IMG/VR virus record: IMGVR_UViG_3300045988_172839
Span: 174,526-238,525 of that record
From: a virus
DNA length: 64,000 bases
Strand: one strand, 5' to 3'
In this document: positions 50,630-64,000 of the stretch, in pieces
How positions within the stretch are numbered: the first letter of the stretch is position 1
Layout: the number at the start of each line of letters is the position of its first letter
Translations under genes and position numbers: made by a program
The notes under the pieces: generated by a model
The model's database searches: none
What the model saw: only the letters and a program-made list of their open reading frames with translations
Told to the model about the DNA's origin: nothing

Positions 50630-50663
50630 TTAAAACCTCTTATTTTGCTTTCTATCAAATTTT

Positions 50664-50730
50664 CTATCTGAGAGGTAGAAATTATCGACCTCAACTTTAA
50701 AATCGAAACTGGGGCAATCTGGGACTTCTG
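50664..50730 (-). promoter_or_regulatory. conserved intergenic element, copy 3
   Basis: tatctgagaggtagaaat ... ttaaaatcgaaactggggcaatctgggacttctg. Confidence 0.45.
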
Positions 50731-50762
50731 AGAGTGCTTTGAGAGTTTTATCTCAATTTACG

Positions 50763-50786
50763 AAAAAGAGCAGACAACTATCTGCT
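50763..50786 (-). terminator. intrinsic terminator closing the tnpB-ncRNA unit
   Basis: agcaga-caacta-tctgct hairpin followed by UUUUU on the minus RNA. Confidence 0.6.
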
Positions 50787-50818
50787 TTCTTTCTCTGTCC
50801 AAACTGCGTTTTTGGAAA

Positions 50819-50888
50819 TGAGAACTTGAGGAGTCGAACCTCAAACCTAGACCAACTGCAATTGGAGCAACAGTTCTTCTAGTTCTCA
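50819..50888 (-). other. tRNA-like element (perfect acceptor stem and T-arm, no convincing D-arm)
   Basis: 8-bp terminal stem TGAGAACT/AGTTCTCA; T-arm TGAGG-TTCGACT-CCTCA; possible anticodon-like arm GTTGC-TCCAATT-GCAGT that includes two G.U pairs. Confidence 0.35.
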
Positions 50889-51149
50889 CCTACTTTTCAG
50901 TTCTGCTGAAAAGTAGAAAATATGAAACATCACAAATCTACATCTGGAAAAGGTAGTCTTTAAAGACTAGTAAAAGTCATGTAAGAACCTTTCTAAGTAT
51001 AAATTTGTTCACACGAAATAATCAGTTTCGTGCTATATATTTAACACCTTTTAGAGTGGTAAATATTAAGTTCAATCTAAAGAGTCTCTTTGAACACTCA
51101 TAAAAACCATAAAATTTAAACCAAGCCTAAATTTTTATCATCGGTTAAG

Positions 51150-51328
51150 TGTCGGCACCTTTGGAACCCTATTAAATAACCAACTACCAAAATGAATTCC
51201 CACTAAGGGTTCACCAAGTAGTTTCATTTAGAACAGCATCAAATAAATATGTACCAAAACTATACTCCTTGAAGTCTCGTTGCCGATACACCTTTGGAAC
51301 CATATCAAATAAATATGAACCAAAACTC
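51150..51328. repeat. three dispersed copies of a roughly 45-nt hairpin-forming repeat
   Basis: cacctttggaacc(c/a)tat(t/c)aaataa..accaaaa at 51150-51194 and 51281-51328, with a degenerate copy at 51231-51262. Confidence 0.75.
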
Positions 51329-51571
51329 ATGTATTTAGTTTGAAAATAACCTATCTATTTAACAAAGTTGCAACATGAATGTTATTGTCTACTCAGAAGT
51401 TACTACTGGATACCCTCAATGAAAGCACCTCTTATGTACATTGCTTTTTGAGCCGAGAATAAGCATCTGGTTGCTTAGAAGCAATTCAAACCTCTGTTTG
51501 AATTAACAACCTCCTAACGAAGTCTCCAAACGAACTCCGAAACAGTTTAAGGTCTTATTTAGGACAAGGTT

Positions 51572-53020
51572 TTAATTAAAATATTCTTTACCTACAGATT
51601 TTAGGTCTGTAGTTAGTTGCGACATTGTAAGCTCTTGATTGCGCAAAAACGTATCAAAGTCAGACTTACAACCATCAATGTCTACTGTTACTCCATCTAA
51701 ACCTACATGCTGTAACAGAAAGGCTGAATATAAGTCACGTTGAACTAAGTCATCACCAATCAGTTTTGAACGTGTACCTAATGAAACTTTGTTGTACTCT
51801 TCAGTTAAGTGGTTTAACTGGGAAGCCTTTACTTCTCTTGTATTTGCAAGAATAAATGTTTTACCTTGGTACATGGTTTTATAACGAATCTGTTCAATCA
51901 ACATAGACGGTGCTTTGTGTAAAAGAGTTTTACCAAAGCGTTTCTTAGACTGGTATTTACCTGTCTTTTCACTTACTTTCGTTTCCTTTGTACGAGCTTG
52001 TAAACCTTTAAAGGACATTTGCTCTACTACGAAAGTTGAACCCATACGCACAACTCTGTTAGCTAAAGTTTTATGAGCCAACTTACGTTGCTCCGCTGCT
52101 TTACGATGTAACTCACTAAGTTCTGCTTTTGTCTTCAGATACTCATTAGAATCTACCCAAGTTTGGCGCACACCCTTTTTAATAGTACCATCTGCATTGT
52201 ACTTGTGAGGATTGTTAGCCCTACGTTGACGATCAAGTTTGCGACTTAAACGTATAAGTTCTTGTTGATCTAAGTCAACTCCCCTTGCTAGTTCCTCTAA
52301 CTCAGTCTGATAATAAGAGGATACCGCAATCGTAGATGTACCAATATCAATTCCCACAGAACCTTCAAGTTCGGAAGTGTATTTAGTTGGGAGTGTTCCC
52401 TCAAAAATAGACTGTACATAGTAGTTCCACTCCCCAAACTCAAATCTGCGAACTAAACGGTTGTACTTCAAAGTATTACGTAAAACTTCTTCTTCAAAAA
52501 CATCGTTTTCGTTACGAATGGTACATGAAACTTTCTTTTTGCGAGTTGAGATAGTGAAAACATTACCTTTTATACTAACTCCTGTAGTTCCGCTACTCTC
52601 AAAGGAAGTCAAATTACCTCTAAGATTCACTTTCTCAGCACCTTTAGCAAACATCACTTTACTAAATGCACCCCATGCTCTAAAACCTAACATATAAGCA
52701 ACCTTAGAAGGAATATAATCACTGTAATTACGAGCATTACGGTAGTCATTTGCAAACTTACCTGCTGTGAACTTACCTACTAAGTCATACTTAGTACCAA
52801 GATCTTTCAAAATTGCATTACGCTCTTTTCCTTTAGGGAACTTATAGGCTTTCTTATAAAGGGGATCTTTCTTCATCTTAGAGTAACGTTTTAACAACGC
52901 AATTAAAGTCTTCTTGTAAATATCGTCTGCCATACGGAAACGCTTTGCAAACTGCTCTTTGTGAGACTTGTTTGCATTTAATTTACGAGTATAGACAAAT
53001 AGTTGTTTACCTTTCTCCAT
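51572..53020 (-). CDS. tnpB: TnpB-like RuvC-fold protein (IS200/IS605 OrfB family) lacking the zinc-ribbon cysteines
   Basis: GIDIGTSTIAVS (RuvC-I D), FVVEQMSFKGLQ (RuvC-II E), LVQRDLYSAFLL (RuvC-III D); the usual TSQxCxxCG position reads ASQLNHLTEEYN; strong AAAGGAGG RBS. Confidence 0.75.
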   Translation of the reverse strand: MEKGKQLFVYTRKLNANKSHKEQFAKRFRMADDIYKKTLIALLKRYSKMKKDPLYKKAYKFPKGKERNAILKDLGTKYDLVGKFTAGKFANDYRNARNYSDYIPSKVAYMLGFRAWGAFSKVMFAKGAEKVNLRGNLTSFESSGTTGVSIKGNVFTISTRKKKVSCTIRNENDVFEEEVLRNTLKYNRLVRRFEFGEWNYYVQSIFEGTLPTKYTSELEGSVGIDIGTSTIAVSSYYQTELEELARGVDLDQQELIRLSRKLDRQRRANNPHKYNADGTIKKGVRQTWVDSNEYLKTKAELSELHRKAAEQRKLAHKTLANRVVRMGSTFVVEQMSFKGLQARTKETKVSEKTGKYQSKKRFGKTLLHKAPSMLIEQIRYKTMYQGKTFILANTREVKASQLNHLTEEYNKVSLGTRSKLIGDDLVQRDLYSAFLLQHVGLDGVTVDIDGCKSDFDTFLRNQELTMSQLTTDLKSVGKEYFN

Positions 53021-53055
53021 GTGAAGAGACCTCCTTTCAAATTTTAACTGTATTT

Positions 53056-53084
53056 ATTTTACCTCACCAATTAAATTTTGTCAA
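53056..53084 (-). promoter_or_regulatory. sigma-A-type promoter (TTGACA-N17-TAAAAT) for tnpB
   Basis: hexamers at 53079-53084 and 53056-53061. Confidence 0.6.
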
Positions 53085-54633: not shown

Positions 54634-54666
54634 CTTAAACCACGTCTCCTTTATAGATTTTTCTTT

Positions 54667-54695
54667 ATTATATCATAAAAACCTTGAAAAATCAA
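54667..54695 (-). promoter_or_regulatory. sigma-A-type promoter (TTGATT-N17-TATAAT, TGn)
   Basis: hexamers at 54690-54695 and 54667-54672. Confidence 0.6.
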
Positions 54696-54705
54696 GAAAT
54701 AGAAA

Positions 54706-55686: not shown

Positions 55687-55718
55687 ACTTAATAACCTTC
55701 TTTCATTTAATTTATTTA

Positions 55719-55747
55719 ATTATAACATAAAAACCTTGAAAAATCAA
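55719..55747 (-). promoter_or_regulatory. sigma-A-type promoter (TTGATT-N17-TATAAT, TGn)
   Basis: hexamers at 55742-55747 and 55719-55724; spacer nearly identical to the promoter at 54667-54695. Confidence 0.6.
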
Positions 55748-55942
55748 GGTTTAAATGAGGATACCCTCTCAATATCTTATTCGGTTTTCCCCAACGAGGT
55801 CTCCACTGAAAACCCTAGACAAAGCTTGTCAATAAACCCGTGGGTAGTCTAAAAACTTTATAACGCTTAAGTATACTCTAAGTAACACTTTTATATTAAC
55901 TCATGTTATACATGTGTGGTTTTATAGTCTTTTCCTTGACAA

Positions 55943-56013
55943 CTAAGGTAGCTGGATTCGAACCAACGATGAAGGAGTCAAAGTCCTTTGCCTTACCTCT
56001 TGGCTATACCTTA
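55943..56013 (-). tRNA. tRNA-Gln (anticodon TTG)
   Basis: hand-folded cloverleaf: acceptor TAAGGTA/TACCTTA, D GCC/GGC, anticodon arm AAGGA-CTTTGAC-TCCTT, T-arm GTTGG-TTCGAAT-CCAGC; no encoded CCA. Confidence 0.85.
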
Positions 56014-56208
56014 ACAATAAAAGATGTAGCTGATTGGTACAGCGCTCTTCCCAATCACTTGCGCCAAACACGTTCGTATCCAGACTACATCGTAACAACA
56101 TATCTTCCTAACAACGAGGATGGTATGTTGTCACCAAGTATACTTGGGGAAGCAAGAACCCAATACCACTGTTTCTCACCAGTGAACTAGTTTCTCTCCA
56201 TAATCCCA

Positions 56209-56281
56209 TGCAGATTAACGGACTCGAACCTCTGACCCTCTGATTACAAATCAGATGTTCTACCAACTGAACTAAATCTGC
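56209..56281 (-). tRNA. tRNA-Thr (anticodon TGT)
   Basis: acceptor GCAGATT/AATCTGC, D GTTC/GAAC, anticodon arm TCTGA-TTTGTAA-TCAGA, T-loop TTCGAGT; one mismatch in the T-stem. Confidence 0.8.
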
Positions 56282-57168
56282 TCACTAAGTTTGTGGTCAA
56301 GCACTTAGAAAACTTGTCAAAGGACTCCAACCCTTCGAAGAAAGCACCCACGGTTAACCAATCTCATTAGGTTCCGAGTATCTTGGAATTATGTGCTTTT
56401 TATTTTAGGATTCCCACCTATAGACCTTCTACCAAAGCCTATCCCCGTCGAGTATTGAGCATACCCAGTCAACTTTGTTACTGCTTGGTTTTCACTAGTA
56501 GTTGACCTAGAGTTTCTTTTTTGGGTTCTAAAGAAACTTAAACCTCAAGTTTGTGTAGCTGAGAGGTTCGTGCGCACGTCCTCTCACTTACCCCAATCAC
56601 TAAGCGCGACTGAACTACATCATTTAAAAGAGAAAATAACTTTTCTCAAATGCTCGATACCGAAGTGTTAGAGCAAACACCTCAGCAATTTATTTTCTTG
56701 GATTTTTACTTAAGGGGTCAAGGGGTGGAAAAGACAAACCGTTGCCAAAACTGCGCCTTGCGTCCACCTAGTTTTAATGTACACTCAACTAGGATTTACC
56801 GCCTGAGTTTATCGACTTCATCGGATTATTGGTCACGTATAAAAGGTATTTACTTATAGCTTCAATTTTGTAAATGTGTTCTCCCCTAAAAGTTATTTTG
56901 ACAAAGCAGGGAACAAGCAGTTAGAAGTTCTTAACACGTTTTCCATAAATGACTATGTTAGACAGGGAGCCATGTTATATCAGATTTACAAACAAAATAC
57001 AAGTAAATTCGGGTTTAAACCCTCACCCGCGGTGTACACCGAAAACCCTAATCAGAAGCTCGTCTAAGATACCGTGAGGTAGCACCTTAAAATCAACGCT
57101 CGTTTAACGTCCAAAAGACGAAACAGTTTAGGTGTCTTATTTAGGACAATAATTACTAAGTAACAAAT
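56282..57168 (-). ncRNA. about 0.9-kb gene-free, comparatively GC-rich structured segment between the methyltransferase gene and tRNA-Thr (large ncRNA candidate)
   Basis: only plus-strand shadow ORFs; stems such as CCTAGTT/AACTAGG, GGTGGA/TCCACC and CGC-AAG-GCG; starts with the 30-nt box shared with the tnpB 3' flank. Confidence 0.4.
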
Positions 57169-57972
57169 TTAGTTCTTCTGAAAAACACAAACCATTTTCG
57201 TATCAAAAGGAACTAAGTCTAGCTCAAAGTAATTCTGTAAATAAGCTAAATAACTCTGATCCTTATATCTATGAATACCTTGCAACTGCAAACAATCTTT
57301 CCAAGGATACGCAATCCACTTTATGAAGGCATTTGTAACATTATATTGCTCTTTTGACTCTCGACTCAAAGACTTCAAACCCCAAACTGTATGAAAAATA
57401 ATCTCATAAGCATTTTTAACAGTAGTTACAATAGAACCGTCTTCTTTTGTCTCAACAGTATCAATAATCGAGTTTTTCTGAAGTTCTTTAATCCAAGTAT
57501 GTATTTCTATCTCACTTTGTTTTGAAACAGGTCGGAGCGTAAATGTCTCAGATACCAAATCTGGGTTAGCCCAATCTCGAATAACTAGAGAACCACCTGT
57601 TTTTAAACTATTTACAATCATGGATATGGTTTCTGTACGTTCTTGACGAGTTAAATAACTCATAATTTCGTGGAAAACACTAGAGAGATAAATTATATCA
57701 AATTGAAGTTCCCCTTTAAGTAACTCTTGTTTAGTTACCACATTTACACCCATACGAGATAAAGTAGTTTGCACAGTCGGAGAAATATCATAAGAATAGT
57801 AATTAGTACCTGTAGAAACTACATTAGCTATAAACTCATAAGAAATACCAGAACCAAAATCCAAAAGTGTAACCCCCTCTCCAAGAAATGGCTCAACTAC
57901 CTTAAATTTAGACTCAGCAGTTTGGTTCATTCTTTGAATATAGCTATTATTATCACTTAAATAGTTATCCAT
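57169..57972 (-). CDS. class I SAM-dependent methyltransferase
   Basis: VTLLDFGSGISYEF (motif I), FDIIYLSSVFHEI, LKTGGSLVIRDW. Confidence 0.65.
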   Translation of the reverse strand: MDNYLSDNNSYIQRMNQTAESKFKVVEPFLGEGVTLLDFGSGISYEFIANVVSTGTNYYSYDISPTVQTTLSRMGVNVVTKQELLKGELQFDIIYLSSVFHEIMSYLTRQERTETISMIVNSLKTGGSLVIRDWANPDLVSETFTLRPVSKQSEIEIHTWIKELQKNSIIDTVETKEDGSIVTTVKNAYEIIFHTVWGLKSLSRESKEQYNVTNAFIKWIAYPWKDCLQLQGIHRYKDQSYLAYLQNYFELDLVPFDTKMVCVFQKN

Positions 57973-58216
57973 TAAATACTCTCTCAGTTTTTCTACATGT
58001 TTAGAAAAATATCAATTATTAGACTTCCATTTTTGAAGAAATCTGATAACTTGTTCTACTTCTGACTTAGATAAATCGTAAGTACCACAGTCATACGAGC
58101 CTTTAGTTTGACAAGTAATAGATACCCCATCATTATATCCTTGTATGGTTTAATCTCCATCAGCATTCTCAAAATCTAATTGACTCATAATTACACATTT
58201 CCTTTTCTCATAGTTA

Positions 58217-58287
58217 TGTACCTTGTAGGAATCGAATCTACGATCCTCAGCTTATGAGACTGAAGATCTACCAACTGCTACCATTCC
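58217..58287 (-). pseudogene. tRNA-like element with CAT anticodon loop but no matching acceptor strands
   Basis: good anticodon arm TCAGT-CTCATAA-GCTGA and T-loop TTCGATT, but 5' GGAATGG cannot pair with 3' AAGGTAC and the D-stem is defective. Confidence 0.35.
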
Positions 58288-58303
58288 ACTTTAATTTAAC
58301 AAA

Positions 58304-58374
58304 CACAGGCAGTAGGAATTGAACCCACACTGACGATTTTGGAGACCGTAGTTCTACCTTTAAACTATGCCTGT
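58304..58374 (-). tRNA. tRNA-Trp (anticodon CCA)
   Basis: acceptor ACAGGCA/TGCCTGT, anticodon arm ACGGT-CTCCAAA-ATCGT, T-arm GTGGG-TTCAATT-CCTAC. Confidence 0.9.
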
Positions 58375-58378
58375 ATAA

Positions 58379-58459
58379 TGGAAAGAGAGGGATTCGAACC
58401 CCCGAACCCGAAGGAGCGGATTTACAGTCCGCCGCGTTTAGCCTCTTCGCTATCTTTCC
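58379..58459 (-). tRNA. tRNA-Tyr (anticodon GTA), long variable arm
   Basis: acceptor GGAAAGA/TCTTTCC, anticodon arm GCGGA-CTGTAAA-TCCGC, T-arm GGGGG-TTCGAAT-CCCTC. Confidence 0.9.
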
Positions 58460-58470
58460 GAATATTAAAA

Positions 58471-58833
58471 CTAAGTTTGACCATACAATAGACTATTACT
58501 AAACTCAAGCACAACCTTGAAAACTGTATCTATGTTTAGAGTGAAAAGTAAGATAAGTAGTCCAAATAAGATCTTTGAGACTAGTGAAGGTAGAATATCT
58601 TCAATCGAAAGACCTAATAATTCTAGTTTAATCTCAATTAGATATTTGAAAATTATCATCCCACCAAATGCAATGGCAACCGCACCATCAGTATTAGGTT
58701 GAGGAAAACCAAAGTAAATATGTAATTTATACAAAATCACCCAAGCTAGTAAACCTAAAGCAGAAGAAAGGATACCACCTGCAAGGTAAAGTAACGCTTC
58801 GTTTCGTAAATCTTTAAACCAACTACCTTCCAT
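58471..58833 (-). CDS. small membrane protein
   Basis: 120 aa with 3 hydrophobic helices; its RBS (AAGAGG) lies inside the anticodon-loop remnant of the upstream tRNA 5' half. Confidence 0.5.
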   Translation of the reverse strand: MEGSWFKDLRNEALLYLAGGILSSALGLLAWVILYKLHIYFGFPQPNTDGAVAIAFGGMIIFKYLIEIKLELLGLSIEDILPSLVSKILFGLLILLFTLNIDTVFKVVLEFSNSLLYGQT

Positions 58834-58880
58834 ATTCCAACCTCTTCAAACCAATGCTCTACCAACTGAGCTACCTTTCC
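58834..58880 (-). pseudogene. tRNA 5' half (Phe-GAA-like) with no 3' half
   Basis: GGAAAGG-TA-GCTC-AGTTGGTA-GAGC-A-TTGGT-TTGAAGA, then runs straight into the ATG of 58471..58833. Confidence 0.5.
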
Positions 58881-58930
58881 TAAAATGTGGAGACTCCTTA
58901 GAGGAGAGTTCGCACATATAAACCAACAAA

Positions 58931-59003
58931 CGGTCTCGAAGGGAATTGAACCCTCGATCTCTGCCGTGACAAGGCAGCGCGATAACCACTACGCTACGAG
59001 ACC
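58931..59003 (-). tRNA. tRNA-Asp (anticodon GTC)
   Basis: acceptor GGTCTCG/CGAGACC, anticodon arm CTGCC-TTGTCAC-GGCAG, T-loop TTCAATT. Confidence 0.9.
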
Positions 59004-59007
59004 TAAT

Positions 59008-59089
59008 GTGATAGGAAGGTCTTGAACTGACTTCCCTAGAAGTAACGGCACCTCTCCTTACTGCATCAACCTACAAATGCTTCTATCAC
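59008..59089 (-). other. atypical 82-nt tRNA-like cloverleaf with extended, bulged arms
   Basis: terminal stem GTGATAG/CTATCAC, D-like GCAT/ATGC, two roughly 7-bp bulged arms with 7-nt loops AGAGGTG and AGTTCAA. Confidence 0.3.
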
Positions 59090-59100
59090 TTAACAAAAAA

Positions 59101-59385
59101 TTAAAAGCCACCAAGAACTAAACATTCTTCCAAAGGTCTAAGAACGAGGTTTTGAAATTTAAGAAAATCCGGATACCCTAAACTATCTCTATAATGTAGC
59201 AACTGTCTTGAGAAGTAAAACTCTGTACCGTTGTAGTAAACATTACCAAGATATTCTCCAGTATGTCGATTACGCACCATAACTGCTTTAGTACCTACTA
59301 CAAAATATAGGTCTTTAACTCTAGTTCTATGTTGGATAATCAAGCGTCTAAGACTTACTGGTAATAGTTTTCTGACTCGTTTCAT
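59101..59385 (-). CDS. hypothetical protein
   Basis: 94-aa basic ORF; AAAGGAGAAG RBS. Confidence 0.5.
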   Translation of the reverse strand: MKRVRKLLPVSLRRLIIQHRTRVKDLYFVVGTKAVMVRNRHTGEYLGNVYYNGTEFYFSRQLLHYRDSLGYPDFLKFQNLVLRPLEECLVLGGF

Positions 59386-59900
59386 TCTACTTCTCCTTTC
59401 TTTTTGATAAATAATATGACTTCGGAGGGAGTCCCACCCACGACACCTGCGCTTGGTGTATTGTAAACATCAAAGCCACGTGTGTTTTTAATTCTGATAA
59501 CTAACTAGACCTTTGTCCAAGGCTTGCAACACACAAAACACCGTAAATCCACTAATGCATCTATACCCCTACACAAGAGGTAAGACCATTAGCGCAACTT
59601 CCAACTCGTGCACAAGTTGGAGGGCTGGCTGTCGCCCTTGTCGTTGCCGACAATACACCATACAGGATTCGAACCCGTGTTACTGCCGTGAAAAGGCAGT
59701 GTCTTAACCCCTTGACCAATGGTGCTTAAGGAGGGCAGGTCTCTGTTTTCCAACAGACGGATTTGGATGCACTGATCGACTGTGTACTTTTATTTGGGCA
59801 GCCCACGTTTCCCTTGTAGACAAATATGTGCAGATGTTTGGTAGTCGTTACCAAACGCTCAGTCAAATCTATCTACTGCAAAAATTAACTTCACGAATTT
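59386..59900 (-). ncRNA. promoter-driven roughly 0.5-kb non-coding unit with tRNA-Glu embedded between structured flanks
   Basis: promoter at 59901-59929; flanks contain GNRA-capped helices (TCTGTT-GGAA-AACAGA, GTCG-GCAA-CGAC) and CCAACT/AGTTGG. Confidence 0.4.
59654..59725 (-). tRNA. tRNA-Glu (anticodon TTC)
   Basis: acceptor GCACCAT/ATGGTGT (one G.U), anticodon arm CTGCC-TTTTCAC-GGCAG, T-arm ACGGG-TTCGAAT-CCTGT. Confidence 0.85.
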
Positions 59901-59929
59901 ATTATAACACAAAGAGTCAAGTTTGTCAA
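59901..59929 (-). promoter_or_regulatory. sigma-A-type promoter (TTGACA-N17-TATAAT, TGn)
   Basis: hexamers at 59924-59929 and 59901-59906. Confidence 0.65.
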
Positions 59930-59985
59930 TAAGTTTTAATTAAAAGTTCACTATTTACTAAATTAGTTAGAAACTTACCGAAAGC

Positions 59986-60348
59986 TTAGAGTGCTGTGTG
60001 ATACTCTTTTAATAGCCTAAGTTCCCTTTCATATTCACGTTGAAGTTTTAAACGCTCCGATTTAGTTTCTTCGGTCATAGGGATTTCAAAAAGCATAGAA
60101 GCATAATTGTGAGTAAACAACTCATAGGTATCATTGAAGTCTACAACAACAAACCAAAGAAACTTAACCTCAGTAAGAGTTGTTTTAGTGTTTAAAGTTA
60201 GTTGAATCCCACAGTTTAGAATCTCATTTAAAGGGTTTGAAGCAAGTTGCTCAAAAGTGAATCCCATATGTTCATTTTCATTGCTCTGAATAGTCTTATA
60301 ATCCCCAAACAAAGGACTGAGAGAAGAAGTATCTAACAAAGAAATCAC
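59986..60348 (-). CDS. hypothetical protein
   Basis: 120-aa ORF; start uncertain. Confidence 0.45.
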   Translation of the reverse strand: MISLLDTSSLSPLFGDYKTIQSNENEHMGFTFEQLASNPLNEILNCGIQLTLNTKTTLTEVKFLWFVVVDFNDTYELFTHNYASMLFEIPMTEETKSERLKLQREYERELRLLKEYHTAL

Positions 60349-60577
60349 ATCCTACTTAGACAAATACCCATATTTCTCAAAAATCTTTAATAACCTAGTG
60401 TAGCTCTTAGGGAGTGAAAAGTAGCGAACTGTATCACTATATAAAAAAGTAGAACCCTCACTCAACCTAAGTAACTTCATAACAAAACTCCTTAAAAATC
60501 TTTATTTAATATAGTATACCATATAAGTCTAAGAATTACAAACATAAAAAAAAGTAAGTAAATCAACTAAGGCTTAC

Positions 60578-60823
60578 TTACAATACTTCACTTGAAGGTT
60601 CATATTCTTTTAAAAGTTCATCTAAATCATAGTTTGGAATATCTAACTGATCAGACTTATTTCTTAAAATAATCTTCCCATCTTCAAAAATAAACTCTAC
60701 CTCATTACCTTCAGACAAATTTAAGTTTTCTAAAACTGTAGTTGGTAGAAGGATACCCTTACTGTTTCCCCATTTAGTAACCTTTTTAGTTCCTAAACTG
60801 CATCGATAATGTTCTTTAACCAT
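60578..60823 (-). CDS. AbrB/MazE/SpoVT-family DNA-binding (antitoxin-like) protein
   Basis: VTKWGNSKGILLPTTVLENLNLSEGNEVEF is the swapped-hairpin barrel signature. Confidence 0.65.
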   Translation of the reverse strand: MVKEHYRCSLGTKKVTKWGNSKGILLPTTVLENLNLSEGNEVEFIFEDGKIILRNKSDQLDIPNYDLDELLKEYEPSSEVL

Positions 60824-60837
60824 CTAAGAATCACCCC

Positions 60838-61188
60838 CTAATCATCAATTAAATCTAAGTATAAAGAGCTGAGAAGATTTTCCAAACTATCAACTGCTGC
60901 TTTATTGCAATCAACACGTAAATACTCATCATCTGGGAAAATATCTAACCAATCTAAACTTGTAGGGTAAAAACCTGTCTCTTCATAAATCTGTGCAGAA
61001 ACTTCATCTAAAGTTTCCGCTAGTTTGTCTACATCAGTAGGTTTAAAATCACCTAAACCACAAATTGCACCGTCATCTTCCCAATAATAAGGATTGATAC
61101 AAATATGGACACTACAAGGATATTCATTTAAAGCTTCTTTTGCTAAAGTTTTAGTTATAAAAGACATTTCAATTTCCTTATCTTTCAT
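60838..61188 (-). CDS. acidic hypothetical protein
   Basis: 116 aa, strongly Asp/Glu-rich. Confidence 0.5.
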   Translation of the reverse strand: MKDKEIEMSFITKTLAKEALNEYPCSVHICINPYYWEDDGAICGLGDFKPTDVDKLAETLDEVSAQIYEETGFYPTSLDWLDIFPDDEYLRVDCNKAAVDSLENLLSSLYLDLIDD

Positions 61189-61195
61189 TAGTTTA

Positions 61196-61562
61196 TGGAG
61201 CCGGTGGGAGTCGAACCCACGTCCAAACGACCTTTCCAGCTAACCTTACTGCGCACTGCTACGTTTTAACATTCTACTTTTAGGAAACGCACAAAGCTAA
61301 AAGTTATATCTCTCTTTAACAAACTAAGTTGAGAAATCTTAGTTGCGAGTACCGATGTTTATAGCAACTAAAAGATACCGGTACTTATCTTAGTCGCTCG
61401 TCTATTCGACTTTTTACTTGTGTTGAGTGACAACTAAGCCGAAGCTTAGGCAACCATTTCAACTGGTGCATTGTTATTTGCAGTTATGTTTAGGTTGGTG
61501 ATTACGTCACCACTCGGTACGAGGTTAAAAGGTACAATCGCCTGTCGAATCCAAGCGACCCC
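61196..61562 (-). ncRNA. ssrA: tmRNA (ssrA)
   Basis: 5' GGGGTCGCTTGGATTCGACAGG and 3' GTGGGTTCGACTCCCACCGGCTCCA form a tRNA-Ala-like acceptor with a G3.U pair and a T-arm; internal ORF ..GCA AAT AAC AAT GCA CCA GTT GAA ATG GTT GCC TAA followed by a UUCG-capped helix; about 367 nt. Confidence 0.85.
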
Positions 61563-61578
61563 TCATTAAGATAAATCT

Positions 61579-61607
61579 ATTATATCAGAAAGATGGTTAA
61601 ATGTCAA
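61579..61607 (-). promoter_or_regulatory. sigma-A-type promoter (TTGACA-N17-TATAAT, TGn) for the tmRNA
   Basis: hexamers at 61602-61607 and 61579-61584, about 17 nt upstream of the mature 5' end. Confidence 0.7.
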
Positions 61608-61874
61608 GGGTTATTTGTGCTATTCTCAGCTTTTGTAGGTGTTTTTGCGAATAAAAGTAAACCAAACAAACCTGCGAACCACAGGAACATCAAGGATACT
61701 CCTCTCAATTATAACTTACTATTGAGTTCATATTGGTTAAATAGAGTTGAAACATGAGAAACTACATCAATCGGAAAACTATACTCAATAGTAATAAACA
61801 AGGTAAATGCGAAGAGGAAACATAAAACTATGTAAACATTCAAAAACTTAATTTTCATTCAAGACCTCTATTTA

Positions 61875-62162
61875 TTAAGCTATCGTCCGTTGAGACAAGA
61901 ACGAAAGAAGTTCTTCTGGGGTTTGGCATCTCATCAACCGTTTAAATTCTAAACTATCTGCAATTATAGACTCAAACTCCATGTTTTGAGTTGGATCATA
62001 ATAACCTATAGTCAAACAATTACCCTCATCTACTCTTATCTGAGCAGACACTCCCCACTCACTATCGAAATCTTCTAAAACTACTTCTAAGTGTCTTTGT
62101 AACTCACTTAAACTAGACTCTAATTCGTTATGTAGTTTCATCATTTTGTTGTAGGTTAGCAT
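61875..62162 (-). CDS. hypothetical protein
   Basis: ATG at 62162 preceded by GAGGGAAGGG; the track ORF extends to 62207. Confidence 0.45.
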   Translation of the reverse strand: MLTYNKMMKLHNELESSLSELQRHLEVVLEDFDSEWGVSAQIRVDEGNCLTIGYYDPTQNMEFESIIADSLEFKRLMRCQTPEELLSFLSQRTIA

Positions 62163-62341
62163 TTTGTGGATACCCTTCCCTCTTAGATATAAAAAGTTTA
62201 CCAGCAAGAAGTTATACCAGTAAACGGGAACATTATGTGATTTATATAGCGGTTCATAACCTTGAGGAGCTTAACTCTAGAAAATAAACACCTCAACAGC
62301 ATTCTTGACTTCTGTTCAATCGCACCGCTACGAAAATCTTA

Positions 62342-62429
62342 CGGAGAATAAGGGATTCGAACCCTTGCGCCAGTTACCCGACCTAACGATTTAGCAAACC
62401 GTCCTCTTCAACCTCTTGAGTAATTCTCC
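62342..62429 (-). tRNA. tRNA-Ser (anticodon GCT)
   Basis: acceptor GGAGAAT/ATTCTCC, anticodon arm ACGGT-TTGCTAA-ATCGT, long variable arm, T-arm AAGGG-TTCGAAT-CCCTT. Confidence 0.9.
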
Positions 62430-62925
62430 AAACTAAAGGGAACCTCTTTGAAAAGAGGATACCCTTACGGTTTGTTTTCCGAAGTAAACCTTACTTCTAC
62501 ACTTCACGTCGCGAACTAGAGTGTAACGAGAGTTCTTTAGAACCCTAACGGTTGTACGTTAGGGGATTTTGTCAGTCTCTAAATGACGATGTTTAGGAAC
62601 CAATATAGGTTCTATAAGTTGCTAACCTTTTACAGTTAACAACCTTCCCGAAAGGAGGATTTAATGAAAGCTAACCTCTCTCCCATTCTCATGAGGAGAG
62701 GAATGATGTAAAAACCTTTAACAGTTCTTACACCAAATAAATTAGAAAAAGAAGGTCTAACTAAACGCTAGAACCAGCCTAGCGAGGAACCAATCAAAAC
62801 CAACTAGACTAGGAGGTAGCGACCTTTGAAAGCCGATACCCCAGTAAACAAAATGCTCTATAACTCTGCTGCACATTTTAAAACATTAGGAGTTATTTTC
62901 TTGAATTGAAATTACTTCAATTCAA
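62430..62925 (-). ncRNA. structured 0.5-kb spacer between the two tRNA-Ser genes (two decaloop hairpins)
   Basis: no ORF; hairpins at 62618-62643 and 62708-62731, plus a 10-bp stem at 62900-62924. Confidence 0.35.
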
Positions 62926-63016
62926 CGGAAGATGTGGGATTCGAACCCACGCGCCGTTTTACCGACCTGACGGTTTTCAAGACCGTTCCCTTATAGCCAG
63001 ACTTGGGTAATCTTCC
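62926..63016 (-). tRNA. tRNA-Ser (anticodon TGA)
   Basis: acceptor GGAAGAT/ATCTTCC, anticodon arm ACGGT-CTTGAAA-ACCGT, long variable arm, T-arm GTGGG-TTCGAAT-CCCAC. Confidence 0.9.
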
Positions 63017-63467
63017 ATGAGGGAAGGTTTCAACCCGTGAAGATTGAAACCCCACCCTAAATTCTAAGAGGATTCATGGAAAATGTGAAAACCATGAATT
63101 TTCCCACACAACAAAGTGTGGTATAACGCAAAGACCTTTGAAAATCATTGCGCTTGAATAAAATTAAGAGGTATTTTGAAAGCAAGTCCTGATCACGAAA
63201 CTCACTTATCAACCAAATTCACTTTAGTAGTAGTTTAGGACATGACTTCACAAAATCCTTGAAAGACATTGTTACTGACTCTAAAATTTGCAACTACTAA
63301 AGCTACGACTCAGCAACCTTCTTCAGATTGCCAAGCCTAAAGGATACAAATCTCACCTACCGAGAAAATACTTACAAATAAACTCAGTAGGCTACGACTC
63401 AACAACCTTATTCAAATTGTTGAGCCTAAAAGGTAACACATACAAAAAATATACATTACATTTGGCA
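63017..63467 (-). ncRNA. structured 0.45-kb spacer with a duplicated roughly 50-nt hairpin module
   Basis: gctacgactca(g/a)caacctt..ttca(g/a)attg.. repeated at 63302-63350 and 63391-63440, with compensatory stem changes. Confidence 0.35.
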
Positions 63468-63542
63468 TCGGAATTGCAGGATTCGAACCTACGACCCCGT
63501 GTTCCCAAAACACGTGCGCTAACCAAACTGCGCTAAATTCCG
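63468..63542 (-). tRNA. tRNA-Pro (anticodon TGG)
   Basis: acceptor CGGAATT/AATTCCG, D GCGC/GCGC, anticodon arm CGTGT-TTTGGGA-ACACG, T-arm GTAGG-TTCGAAT-CCTGC. Confidence 0.9.
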
Positions 63543-63558
63543 ATAATATAAAAGGTAA

Positions 63559-63697
63559 TGAGGATAGAGGGAATTGAACCCTCGGTCATAAGCAGTCGCT
63601 GCCTTACCCCTTGGCTATACAACGACCTAGTCGTCGTAAAAGGATTCGAACCCGTGGTCTACGGTCTCTTATTGCCTTACCACTTGGCTATATCCTC
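63559..63697 (-). other. composite nested tRNA-like element (a permuted tRNA-like module inside the anticodon stem of another)
   Basis: outer 7-bp stem GAGGATA/TATCCTC; two D-arms (GCC-AAGTGGTAA-GGC, GCC-AAGGGGTAA-GGC); two T-arms (TTCGAAT, TTCAATT); inner hairpin TACGACG-ACTAGGT-CGTTGTA; ATAAG/CTTAT helix at the anticodon-stem position. Confidence 0.6.
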
Positions 63698-63789
63698 GAT
63701 AATTAAAATACGAAGAGCAAGAGATTTGCTCTAAGAACTTCTGCAACCCTCTTTCAAGCATTGCACGCCGTTGTGGCACAAAGACAAAT

Positions 63790-63891
63790 ACCACCGCAAG
63801 GATTCGAACAGTTTTCAAAGAAAACTCCGCTGATCTACCGGCTCATCTATGTAAGTCATGACTCAAACATAAGCACCATGCTATCGGTGGT
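63790..63891 (-). pseudogene. tRNA-derived element (decayed tRNA-Lys-like core closed by a new 7-bp terminal stem)
   Basis: ACCACCG/CGGTGGT terminal stem; the interior GAGCCGGTAGATCAGCGGAG..TTTTCTTTGAAAAC..TTCGAATCC resembles tRNA-Lys(TTT) but lacks a T-stem and its own acceptor. Confidence 0.3.
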
Positions 63892-63932
63892 AATCAGGAT
63901 TTAAACGTTTAAACTTCCACTTCGCAATGGAA

Positions 63933-64000
63933 CTCCACCAACTGGGTTCGAACCAGTGACATCATGATTAACAGTCATGCGCTCTACCAACTGAGCTATG
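63933..64000 (-). tRNA. tRNA-Asn (anticodon GTT), 5' end truncated by the window edge
   Basis: D GCTC/GAGC, anticodon arm CATGA-CTGTTAA-TCATG, T-arm ACTGG-TTCGAAC-CCAGT, 3' acceptor TGGTGGA. Confidence 0.8.

What the first reader, a model, noticed from the sequence alone, without database searches (positions are those of the whole stretch)
50787..53084. Well-expressed TnpB-like gene without zinc-ribbon cysteines, followed by 0.8 kb of structured RNA ending in a tRNA-like module
The 482-aa protein keeps the three RuvC acidic residues in TnpB-like contexts (GIDIGTS, VVEQMSF, VQRDLYSA). Where TnpB normally carries its CxxC...CxxC zinc ribbon, it reads ASQLNHLTEEYNKVSLGTRSKLIGDD. It has its own consensus promoter and an AAAGGAGG RBS, and no tnpA is present. 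In TnpB systems the guide (omega/reRNA) overlaps the 3' end of the gene and extends downstream. Here about 785 nt of ORF-free sequence follow, which is far longer than typical omega-RNAs. That sequence contains stable stems, three copies of a roughly 45-nt hairpin repeat (51150-51328) and a tRNA-like acceptor/T-arm module (50819-50888) just before an intrinsic terminator (50763-50786). This could be a domesticated RNA-guided nuclease or regulator of the phage, with an unusual and possibly tRNA-processed guide RNA.
Basis: partly seen in the sequence, partly recalled or inferred. Interest (0 to 1): 0.7.

Follow-up and report, generated by a model that had tools for sequence, protein, structure and literature searches.

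The report
Phage mini-CRISPR with TnpB-like nuclease
The "long structured RNA" after this zinc-finger-less TnpB-like gene is a folded scaffold RNA followed by a short CRISPR array, so this large phage, probably of Streptococcus, carries a miniature CRISPR system, and sister phages' arrays carry spacers against rival phages.

Summary
In detail: the 482-aa ORF, promoter, RBS, 785 ORF-free bases, repeats, tRNA-like fold and terminator are all present. The protein has the TnpB/Cas12f fold, keeps D225/E333/D429 and, like its whole family, lacks the zinc-ribbon cysteines.

The interpretation needs changing. The downstream RNA is not one oversized omega-RNA. It has three parts:
- **Scaffold:** a 245-nt structured RNA with strong covariation (25 of 54 pairs compensatory).
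- **CRISPR array:** 36-nt repeats and 30-31-nt spacers at a 66-nt period. The window has three clear repeats and one decayed repeat.
- **tRNA-like RNA:** a separate conserved unit, a hairpin plus a Y-shaped tRNA-like fold. Another gene separates it from the array in one relative, and a second lineage lacks it.

Related phages keep the repeats and swap the spacers. One array gained a unit at the scaffold-proximal end. Three spacers match other phages: this window's own phage, a tail gene, and Streptococcus prophages (30/30).

Repeat length, spacer length, repeat ends and the GAG leader end resemble streptococcal type II-A arrays. No cas1/cas2 is in the window.

This is a new member of a known kind (TnpB-derived type V / TranC-like, phage-borne). 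It may already sit in published catalogues that I could not search.

The parts
53056..53084 (-). sigma-70-type promoter, TTGACA-17-TAAAAT
   Evidence: 11 of 12 matches. It lies just downstream of the upstream gene's terminator (53219-53189).
53030..53037 (-). ribosome-binding site AAAGGAGG, 9 nt before the ATG
   Evidence: Read directly from the sequence.
51572..53020 (-). 482-aa TnpB/Cas12-family effector without zinc-ribbon cysteines; D225, E333 and D429 intact
   Evidence: PHROG 506, E 1e-33. NCBIfam guided_TnpB, 55.8 bits, below its cut-off. AF2 model pLDDT 85.6. Foldseek hits to AsCas12f, ISFba1 and ISDra2 TnpB, Cas12p and LaTranC, E 5e-13 to 3e-9. The triad is conserved in 227-233 of 239 homologues, and 206 of 239 have no Cys at the ribbon position.
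51327..51571 (-). 'Block A': conserved structured RNA (candidate tracrRNA / omega-scaffold, possibly also the leader), ending in GAG before repeat 1
   Evidence: On alignment A7 (14 sequences), 95.6% of cells are paired, against 32-50% in the slid controls. 25 of 54 pairs show compensatory change, and 0 of 500 shuffles reach that. It is present in the 65%-identity lineage even where an extra ORF separates it from the gene.
51526..51530 (-). hairpin-loop TTTGG in block A that can pair with CCAAA at the 3' end of each repeat (proposed pseudoknot or kissing contact next to the spacer)
   Evidence: helix 2: 95.7% paired. Two pairs change on both sides in L003, L010 and L012 (one event). In L191 the loop is kept while its stem covaries.
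51291..51326 (-). CRISPR repeat 1, GTTTTGGTTCATATTTATTTGATATGGTTCCAAAGG
   Evidence: 23 of 36 identical to the S. thermophilus CRISPR3 repeat; 0 of 20000 shuffles reach that.
51261..51290 (-). spacer 1 (30 nt)
   Evidence: Unique; no target found.
51225..51260 (-). CRISPR repeat 2 (30 of 36 identical to R1)
51194..51224 (-). spacer 2 (31 nt)
   Evidence: No target found.
51158..51193 (-). CRISPR repeat 3 (28 of 36 identical to R1)
51127..51157 (-). spacer 3 (31 nt)
   Evidence: No target in INPHARED.
51086..51126 (-). degenerate terminal repeat (GCTTGG...GTTCAAAGAG, about 41 nt); uncertain
   Evidence: Read from the sequence. Only the ends resemble the repeat.
51012..51032 (-). conserved hairpin CACGAAA-CTGATTA-TTTCGTG at the start of the downstream conserved unit
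   Evidence: The stem covaries among phages: GCGCAGAG/CTCTGCGT and GCGTAAAG/CTTTACGT. In L009, homology to the window resumes at 51065, after the insertion.
50970..50998 (+). protospacer matched by spacer 3 of the array of sister phage L007/L011/L177 (about 27 of 29)
   Evidence: 22 of 23 in the BLAST core, E 7e-5. L007's own homologous site has about 6 mismatches (read).
50922..50936 (-). invariant box TTTGTGATGTTTCAT
   Evidence: Identical in all 9 distinct sequences of A5. Function unknown.
50890..50916 (-). 11-bp hairpin immediately 5' of the tRNA-like fold
   Evidence: The stem covaries (CTACTTTTCAG/CTGAAAAGTAG against CCTCTTGT/ACAAGGGG).
50818..50889 (-). Y-shaped tRNA-like RNA: 7-bp acceptor-like stem, long arm, T arm with TTCGAnT loop; no D arm, no 7-nt anticodon loop, no encoded CCA
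   Evidence: Independent MFE folds give the same architecture in 10 of 12 variants. z = -3.9. Compensatory changes occur in 4 of 7 acceptor pairs and 2 of 6 T-stem pairs (read). Not called by ARAGORN or Rfam.
50769..50786 (-). intrinsic terminator followed by a T run
   Evidence: It is the only minus-strand terminator-like site between the gene and the next ORF.

Best explanation
The locus is a miniature, phage-encoded, TnpB-derived type V-like CRISPR system. A sigma-70-type promoter probably drives the 482-aa effector, a 245-nt structured scaffold RNA and a short CRISPR array. The effector has the TnpB/Cas12f fold, an intact DED triad and no zinc ribbon.

Inferred mechanism: the array transcript is cut into units made of a repeat 3' end plus the downstream spacer. 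Each unit joins the scaffold, possibly through the loop UUUGG pairing with the repeat's CCAAA next to the spacer, as the pseudoknot does in omega-RNA. The ribonucleoprotein then finds complementary DNA in competing phages and prophages of the same host, apparently Streptococcus, and cuts it with the RuvC site. Sister lineages with D429N or D429K would bind without cutting.

Spacers turn over at the scaffold-proximal end. No adaptation genes are in the window. The 36/30 geometry, the repeat ends and the GAG leader end match streptococcal type II-A arrays, so new spacers are probably inserted by the host's type II-A Cas1-Cas2 machinery. This last step is the most speculative.

The window's own array is partly decayed and has no identified target. 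The tRNA-like RNA downstream is a separate conserved unit that shares the terminator. It may act as an RNase P/Z-type processing or stabilising element, or as an independent small RNA.
For: **Protein**
- Family and fold.
- Triad conserved and ribbon cysteines absent across 239 homologues.

**Array**
- Regular 66-nt period, with conserved repeats and unrelated spacers in about 12 related phages.
- L182 equals the L005 array plus one new unit at the scaffold-proximal end. L183 and L192 share only the distal spacer.

**Targets**
- L007 spacer 3 matches this window at 50970-50998.
- L192 spacer 1 matches 29 of 30 in a major tail protein gene of another viral contig.
- L191 spacer 1 matches 30 of 30 in Streptococcus phages phi-m46.1, Javan369 and YS771, and 28 of 30 in 11 further Streptococcus phage/prophage records (27-28 nt in five more records, one of them a Lachnospiraceae phage).

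**Scaffold**
- 25 of 54 pairs are compensatory, 0 of 500 shuffles reach that, and 95.6% of cells are paired against 32-50% when slid.
- It travels with the array in a second lineage even when an ORF separates it from the gene.

**Linkage of gene and array**
- Distant relatives at 33-37% identity, in Ruminococcus bromii and other Clostridia, have their own arrays about 300 nt downstream.

**Type II-A resemblance**
- 24 of 36 identity to the S. thermophilus CRISPR3 repeat, reached by 0 of 20000 shuffles.
- The leader ends in GAG, as in ...ctacgag|GTTTTAG (PMC6620040; leader-anchoring sequence, PMC7999890).
- No Cas1, Cas2, Cas4 or Csn2 among 64 window ORFs.
Against: - No RNA or activity data exist. 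Processing sites, the guide form and cleavage are all inferred.
- No significant Watson-Crick anti-repeat was found in the scaffold. The loop-repeat contact rests on one covariation event.
- The window's repeats are degenerate (25-30 of 36), and its three spacers have no match in INPHARED. The exact 20-mers of spacers 1 and 2 have no match in IMG/VR; spacer 3 was not scanned there.
- In L003 and L010 the array is fossilised and the 'spacers' are shared.
- The 5' flanks of the three protospacers are CTA, CTA and TCT, so they do not yet define a PAM.
- Only 64 kb of a roughly 250-kb genome was checked for adaptation genes.
- The type II-A link is by resemblance to one reference repeat.
Confidence: 0.72

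Rival explanations
1. The system is a domesticated guide-RNA regulator rather than an immune nuclease. The protein uses a small fixed set of guides to bind and repress, or otherwise mark, phage or host DNA, as TldR or Cas12m do. Spacer differences would reflect slow drift and recombination.
For: Sister phages carry D429N (six 90%-identity clusters, and L009) or D429K (P0007, L013) and still keep arrays. In L003 and L010 the arrays are decayed and their spacers are shared. The window's repeats are degenerate and no target was found.
Against: The window protein and most relatives keep DED. Spacers of phages whose proteins are 87-91% identical are unrelated to each other. One array gained a unit at one end. 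Three spacers match other phages, not the carrier.
Confidence: 0.13
2. The array is an orphan type II-A-like mini-array that the phage carries to load the host's Cas9. Its position next to the TnpB-like gene would be incidental.
For: The array has 36-nt repeats and 30-nt spacers. The repeat ends and the GAG leader end resemble S. thermophilus CRISPR3. No cas genes are in the window.
Against: The gene, scaffold and array stay together in two phage lineages with different surroundings. Distant family members have quite different arrays at the same relative place. The 5' 22 nt that would pair with a Cas9 tracrRNA match CRISPR3 at only 13 positions (counted by eye from the two repeat sequences). 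No inverted repeat copy exists in the window or in L007. The 3' flanks of the three protospacers lack NGG-type motifs.
Confidence: 0.06
3. This is an ordinary IS200/IS605- or IS607-type TnpB insertion with its omega-RNA, and the remaining sequence is unrelated intergenic DNA.
For: Relatives at 30-42% identity are multi-copy in Bacillota genomes and in Clostridium phage c-st, and are annotated as transposases.
Against: The gene is at the same position in all related jumbo phages. There is no tnpA and no second copy in the window. No homologue above 45% identity was found in 185,579 species genomes. The downstream sequence is a repeat-spacer array, not a single guide at a right end.
Confidence: 0.04
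4. The repeats are not CRISPR at all. They would be iterons, protein-binding sites or attenuator hairpins that happen to be regularly spaced.
For: Each repeat can form a hairpin. The window has only three or four copies.
Against: The 66-nt period is strict, with unrelated spacers of 29-31 nt, in about a dozen phages. Exact or near-exact spacer matches exist in other phages.
Confidence: 0.03

Closest known systems
TranC systems / type V-U candidate subtypes (TnpB-to-Cas12 intermediates; LaTranC PDB 9jfo; V-U6 to V-U45 of Altae-Tran et al. 2023, PMC10691335)
   Same: A TnpB-sized effector (300-600 aa) is followed by a short downstream CRISPR array with no adaptation genes, and a structured RNA lies between gene and array. 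The array is downstream, as the omega-RNA is. The fold matches LaTranC at E 2.6e-10. Phage-borne examples are known (CauTranC9, bioRxiv 10.64898/2026.03.27.714800).
   Different: There is no detectable sequence relation to LaTranC (profile E 0.33). The zinc ribbon is absent. No clear anti-repeat was found. The array resembles type II-A arrays.
Cas12p ('Cas12 hacker'), Cas12j/CasPhi and Cas-lambda: phage-encoded compact type V effectors
   Same: These are phage-encoded with short arrays and no cas1/cas2, and are presumed to act against rival nucleic acids. Cas12p uses tracrRNA plus crRNA (bioRxiv 10.1101/2025.01.20.633832). The fold matches Cas12p at E 6.5e-12.
   Different: The protein is smaller (482 aa against 500-800). 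It is about 13% identical to Cas12p over the structural alignment. It belongs to a different branch, one whose nearest relatives are IS-type TnpBs of Bacillota.
IS200/IS605 and IS607 TnpB with omega-RNA (ISDra2, PDB 8h1j)
   Same: It shares the WED/REC/RuvC fold (E 1e-12) and the DED triad. A structured RNA starts right after the stop codon. The motif before the guide may form a pseudoknot with an upstream loop.
   Different: It has no zinc ribbon, no tnpA, no IS ends and no multi-copy distribution. It has an array of several guides instead of one. The scaffold need not overlap the gene (L005).
TnpB branch RIIIr-4 of Altae-Tran et al. 2023 (zinc finger lost; enriched in viruses)
   Same: The C4 zinc finger is absent and the branch occurs in viruses (PMC10691335).
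   Different: RIIIr-4 is described as having the RuvC-III aspartate replaced by histidine. Here an aspartate (D429) is kept in 227 of 239 homologues, so membership is doubtful.
Streptococcal type II-A CRISPR arrays (S. thermophilus CRISPR3)
   Same: Repeats are 36 nt and spacers 30 nt. 24 of 36 repeat positions are identical, concentrated at both ends. The leader ends in GAG. New units are added at the leader end.
   Different: There is no cas9, csn2, cas1 or cas2 and no anti-repeat tracrRNA. The neighbouring effector is a RuvC-only TnpB relative.
tRNA, the tmRNA tRNA-like domain, and other tRNA-like RNAs
   Same: It has a 7-bp acceptor-like stem stacked on a T arm with a TTCGAnT loop.
   Different: It has no D arm, no 7-nt anticodon loop and no CCA. 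ARAGORN and Rfam do not call it. The true tmRNA of this phage lies elsewhere, at 61196-61562.

Membership tests
TnpB/Cas12 RuvC superfamily | WED-REC-RuvC fold | tested here: met
   AF2 model pLDDT 85.6. 41 PDB matches at E <= 1e-3, all TnpB, Cas12, Fanzor or TranC; the best is AsCas12f at 5e-13.
TnpB/Cas12 RuvC superfamily | RuvC catalytic D-E-D | tested here: met
   D225, E333 and D429 are present in the window protein and in 232, 233 and 227 of 239 homologues. D225 and E333 lie inside the Pfam and NCBIfam matches. The placement of D429 is inferred from conservation and from its position at the start of the helix that follows a beta-hairpin.
Canonical TnpB (IS200/IS605, IS607) | CxxC...CxxC zinc ribbon between RuvC-II and RuvC-III | tested here: not met
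   206 of 239 homologues have no Cys in the aligned 36 columns. None in the window protein.
Canonical TnpB (IS200/IS605, IS607) | Part of a mobile IS: tnpA or IS ends, several copies, variable position | tested here: not met
   The locus is syntenic in related phages. No tnpA in the window. One copy in 64 kb.
Canonical TnpB (IS200/IS605, IS607) | Scores above curated family cut-offs | tested here: not met
   Pfam OrfB_IS605 scores 23.2 against 30.5. NCBIfam guided_TnpB scores 55.8 against 100.
Type V CRISPR-Cas (including V-U / TranC) | RuvC effector next to a CRISPR array, conserved across relatives | tested here: met
Type V CRISPR-Cas (including V-U / TranC) | Spacers vary between strains and match mobile elements | tested here: met
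   Spacers are unrelated between sister phages. One unit was gained at one end. Three protospacers lie in other phages. No target was found for the window's own spacers.
Type V CRISPR-Cas (including V-U / TranC) | tracrRNA with an anti-repeat (in tracr-dependent subtypes) | tested here: inconclusive
   The structured RNA is present. Anti-repeat complementarity is not above shuffles. Only a 5-nt loop-repeat contact shows some covariation.
Type V CRISPR-Cas (including V-U / TranC) | RNA-guided DNA cleavage with a 5' PAM | not testable with these tools
   The 5' flanks of the three protospacers are CTA, CTA and TCT, too few to define a motif.
A named TranC or V-U clade | Sequence membership in a published clade | not testable with these tools
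   Supplementary sequences are not held. LaTranC scores only E 0.33 against the family profile.
Type II-A CRISPR array | 36-nt repeat, 30-nt spacer, leader ending in GAG, leader-end acquisition | tested here: met
Type II-A CRISPR array | cas9-cas1-cas2-csn2 and a tracrRNA anti-repeat nearby | tested here: not met
   limited to the 64-kb window.
tRNA | Cloverleaf with D arm and 7-nt anticodon loop; recognised by tRNA finders | tested here: not met
   ARAGORN finds 10 tRNA/tmRNA genes elsewhere in the window and none here. Rfam finds nothing here at E <= 10. The folds show no D arm.

The most novel reading that the evidence does not exclude
This would be a hybrid system. A phage-encoded, zinc-ribbon-less TnpB-derived effector reads a CRISPR array whose repeat ends and leader are shaped to be serviced by the host's type II-A Cas1-Cas2-Csn2 integrase. 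The phage would thus outsource adaptation to the host's machinery while supplying its own effector and scaffold RNA to fight rival Streptococcus phages. A tRNA-like RNA at the end of the operon would serve as a processing or stabilising handle.
Probability: 0.2. Interest if true: 0.8.

Novelty: new member of a known kind. Interest (0 to 1): 0.58.

Why it matters
- **Size and context:** the effector would be a 482-aa CRISPR nuclease with natural spacers, carried by abundant human-associated jumbo phages that apparently infect Streptococcus. Compact effectors of this kind are sought for genome editing.
- **Evolution:** the clade sits between mobile TnpBs and CRISPR. IS-type relatives are at 30-42% identity, and CRISPR-linked relatives occur in at least two branches. 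This bears on how omega-RNAs became tracrRNA plus array.
- **Phage conflict:** spacers against a sister jumbo phage, a tail gene and Streptococcus prophages are direct evidence of CRISPR-mediated conflict between phages.
- **Adaptation:** if the type II-A-like array design means that host adaptation enzymes feed a phage effector of another type, that cross-type dependence can be tested directly.
- **Effector states:** the D429N and D429K sister lineages offer a natural comparison of cutting and binding-only effectors.

Tried and rejected
- **DNA similarity:** the locus and 20 kb of the window have no DNA match in INPHARED.
- **Solved structures:** a single-sequence search of PDB sequences found nothing. 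The profile search gave only weak hits.
- **Anti-repeat in the scaffold:** RNAduplex energies and Smith-Waterman scores are no better than shuffles. I dropped the classical anti-repeat claim.
- **Cas9-type inverted repeat copy:** none found.
- **Targets of the window's spacers:** no hit for spacers 1-3 in INPHARED. No hit for spacers 1 and 2 as exact 20-mers in IMG/VR.
- **Targets of other spacers:** L007 spacer 1 and L182 spacer 1 also have no hit in IMG/VR.
- **PAM:** three protospacers are not enough.
- **RNAalifold on the tRNA-like alignment A5:** it failed to recover the acceptor stem, because MAFFT misaligned the L003-type variants. I used per-sequence folds instead and did not build a covariance model.
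- **RIIIr-4 membership:** considered and doubted, because the RuvC-III Asp is kept here.
- **Small ORF on the opposite strand at the invariant box (MKHHK...):** considered and rejected, because it has no ribosome-binding site.
- **Published clade lists:** supplementary tables of the TnpB/Cas12 and TranC papers are not held. The original TranC paper is not in the library.
Full report
**1. The observation**

The ORF at 51572-53020 on the minus strand encodes 482 aa. It follows a TTGACA-17-TAAAAT promoter at 53084-53056 (11 of 12 matches) and an AAAGGAGG site at 53037-53030. After the stop codon come 785 bases without a conserved ORF, ending at an intrinsic terminator at 50786-50769.

The window is a phage. 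All genes lie on one strand. There are 10 tRNA/tmRNA calls at 55.9-63.5 kb, plus primase, NrdD, MazG and a PcsB/CHAP lysin. It has no DNA match among deposited phages. Near-identical genes lie on metagenomic contigs of 230-290 kb, many from human samples.

**2. The protein**

Curated profiles see it only weakly. Pfam OrfB_IS605 gives 23 bits and NCBIfam guided_TnpB gives 56 bits, both below their cut-offs. PHROG 506 'transposase' matches at 1e-33.

An AlphaFold model (pLDDT 85.6) matches AsCas12f, ISFba1 and ISDra2 TnpB, Cas12p, Cas12m and LaTranC at E 5e-13 to 3e-9, with TM scores of 0.4-0.55 and 12-16% identity. No single solved relative stands out. Searches of PDB sequences find almost nothing.

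In 239 full-length homologues, D225, E333 and D429 are kept in 232, 233 and 227 respectively. 206 have no cysteine where the zinc ribbon should be. The family is therefore a zinc-ribbon-less branch with a normal-looking RuvC site. It is large: 1925 clusters at 50% identity reach E <= 1e-3.

Members at 30-42% identity are spread over Bacillota genomes, often in several copies. They also occur in Geobacillus virus E3 and Clostridium phage c-st, where they are annotated as transposases. Nothing above 45% identity was found in the species-genome collection. The window's own clade therefore seems confined to phages. Within that clade several lineages carry D429N or D429K.

**3. The downstream RNA has three parts**

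I aligned the region from ten related phages.

*The scaffold.* The 245 nt right after the stop codon (51571-51327, 'block A') is highly conserved. On 14 sequences the consensus fold has 95.6% of cells paired, against 32-50% when the partners are slid. 25 of 54 pairs show changes on both sides, and 0 of 500 shuffles reach that. Block A also exists in a second lineage (65% protein identity, different phage context). There a 118-aa ORF sits between the gene and block A, so the RNA does not depend on overlapping the gene's 3' end.

The window has R1 at 51326-51291, R2 at 51260-51225, R3 at 51193-51158 and a decayed fourth copy. Sister phages have two to seven units with the same repeat and unrelated spacers.

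*The tRNA-like unit.* After the array comes a separate conserved unit of about 300 nt. It contains:
- a covarying hairpin (51032-51012);
- an invariant box TTTGTGATGTTTCAT (50936-50922);
- an 11-bp hairpin (50916-50890);
- a Y-shaped tRNA-like fold (50889-50818);
- the terminator.

**4. The array behaves like a CRISPR array**

L182 carries the four spacers of L005 plus one extra repeat-spacer unit at the block A-proximal end. L183 and L192 share only their most distal spacer. That is the pattern expected from addition at a leader end.

Three spacers have matches outside any array:
- Spacer 3 of L007 matches this window's phage at 50970-50998, about 27 of 29, while L007's own homologous site differs at about six positions.
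- Spacer 1 of L192 matches 29 of 30 inside a major tail protein gene of another viral contig.
- Spacer 1 of L191 matches 30 of 30 in Streptococcus phages phi-m46.1, Javan369 and YS771. It matches 28 of 30 in 11 further Streptococcus phage/prophage records, and 27-28 nt in five more records, one of them a Lachnospiraceae phage.

The targets are therefore rival phages and prophages, and the host is most likely Streptococcus. The PcsB-type lysin domain fits that host. The 5' flanks are ...GACTA...TTCTA and ...ACTCT, and the 3' flanks have no NGG-like motif. Three cases are too few to define a PAM.

The window's own three spacers found no target and its repeats have drifted (25-30 of 36). In L003 and L010 the array is clearly decaying.

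**5. How scaffold and repeats may connect**

I found no significant anti-repeat. There is also no inverted repeat copy of the kind a Cas9 tracrRNA would need.

The first hairpin of block A presents an invariant TTTGG loop (51530-51526). It can pair with the CCAAA that ends every repeat, directly before the spacer. In the three phages where the loop reads AGTGG, the repeat ends read yCTCT, which keeps four of the five pairs with two changes on both sides. In L191 the stem covaries and the loop is kept. This resembles the pseudoknot next to the guide in omega-RNA and Cas12f guide RNAs (my own knowledge of those structures). It rests on one evolutionary event, so I treat it as a lead.

**6. Resemblance to type II-A arrays**

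The repeat is 36 nt and the spacer 30 nt. 24 of 36 repeat positions equal the S. thermophilus CRISPR3 repeat, mostly at both ends, and 0 of 20000 shuffles reach that.

The sequence before repeat 1 ends in GAG in nearly all phages. The CRISPR3 leader does the same (...ctacgag|GTTTTAGAG..., PMC6620040). This is where the type II-A leader-anchoring sequence lies (PMC7999890).

No Cas1, Cas2, Cas4 or Csn2 domain occurs among the 64 larger ORFs of the window. A reasonable but untested inference is that host type II-A integrases add the spacers.

**7. The tRNA-like module**

Each of 12 sequence variants was folded on its own. Ten give the same picture: a hairpin, then a three-way junction with a 7-bp acceptor-like stem, a long arm, and a T arm with a TTCGAnT loop. 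The window's version has z = -3.9.

The stems covary. The acceptor reads TGAGAAC/GTTCTCA, TGGAGAC/GTCTCCA or TGGGGTA/TACCTCA. The T stem reads TTGAGG/CCTCAA or TGTAGG/CCTACA. There is no D arm, no 7-nt anticodon loop and no CCA, and ARAGORN and Rfam do not call it.

It is separable from the CRISPR part. In L009 a 2.2-kb insertion carrying a second, 424-aa TnpB-like gene lies between them. The L005-type lineage lacks the module. No minus-strand terminator lies between the gene and 50786, so it may still be co-transcribed and serve as a processing or stabilising end. That is an inference.

**8. Comparison with known systems**

TnpB-sized effectors with downstream arrays and no adaptation genes are known. 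They include the V-U candidate subtypes (PMC10691335) and the TranC systems, some of them phage-borne. Other phages encode Cas12p, Cas12j and Cas-lambda (my own knowledge for the last two).

The present clade works like these, and I file it as a new member of that kind. It fails the zinc-ribbon and mobility features of canonical TnpB. It does not fit the description of the zinc-finger-less branch RIIIr-4, which has His in place of the RuvC-III Asp.

Distant relatives in Ruminococcus bromii and other Clostridia have their own arrays with roughly 33-nt repeats. Array association is therefore recurrent in this family. I could not test whether the clade is already listed in published supplements.

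**9. Verdict**

It belongs to a class described in the last three years, and the window's own array looks partly decayed. Interest is moderate to high. The hybrid reading, a type V effector served by host type II-A adaptation, is the part most worth an experiment.

Noticed in passing
window 50970-50998 (+): This window's phage is itself a target. Spacer 3 of the array in sister phage L007/L011/L177 matches here (about 27 of 29), inside the conserved non-coding unit upstream of the tRNA-like fold.
   Followed up: partly
L009:6113-7387: A second TnpB-like ORF (424 aa) sits between the array and the tRNA-like module in one sister phage. It is preceded by a copy of the phage's own promoter element.
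   Followed up: partly
L001:12819-13449: A contig that encodes the identical 482-aa protein and is near-identical to the window across the locus compared carries a serine-recombinase gene (Resolvase/MerR). Next to it is a 407-aa TnpB with the Cas12f1-like zinc-ribbon domain, an IS607-type element. The window has no such Pfam hits at the corresponding place.
   Followed up: no
P0007, P0008, P0015, P0018, P0026, P0032, P0036; L009, L013: Sister lineages have the third RuvC residue changed (D429N or D429K) but keep four- to five-unit arrays. They are possibly binding-only effectors.
   Followed up: partly
L185 array, spacer 3: The spacer TGTTTAATTGTGCTATCTTCATTAAACACT is antisense to the conserved ...NEDGTIK... 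coding segment of TnpB-like genes. It matches 21-24 of 30 positions in several family members, including L009's second copy. It may target rival copies of the same gene family.
   Followed up: partly
L191 (contig OBMA010015101.1): A divergent block A and a two-repeat array lie upstream of a TnpB-like gene start (62% identity over residues 2-67), not downstream. Its first spacer is the one that matches Streptococcus prophages 30 of 30.
   Followed up: partly
L150, L155, L163, L173, L149, L077, L080, L082: Relatives at 33-37% identity, in Ruminococcus bromii, Ruminococcoides, Clostridia MAGs and viral contigs, have arrays of 4-10 units about 300 nt downstream. The repeat is roughly 33 nt (GTTGCAATCC...GGGTTGCCAG) and the period is 66-67 nt.
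   Followed up: partly
window 61196-61562 and 55942-64000: The phage encodes a tmRNA (tag ANNNAPVEMVA) and at least ten tRNAs in a cluster on the same strand.
   Followed up: no
window 54666-54696 and 55718-55748 (-): A repeated promoter element, CTTGATTTTTCAAGGTTTTTATGATATAATA (TTGATT-17-TATAAT), is also present in several copies in the sister phages.
   Followed up: partly
window 50630-50768 (-): The intergenic stretch after the terminator is strongly conserved among sister phages (for example CTCTCAGAAG..CCAGA..TGCC.CAGTTT and AGGTCGATAATTTCTACCTCTCAGAT). I did not examine it.
   Followed up: no
L005:7468-7824: A 118-aa ORF with no Pfam hit is inserted between the effector gene and block A in the 65%-identity lineage.
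   Followed up: no
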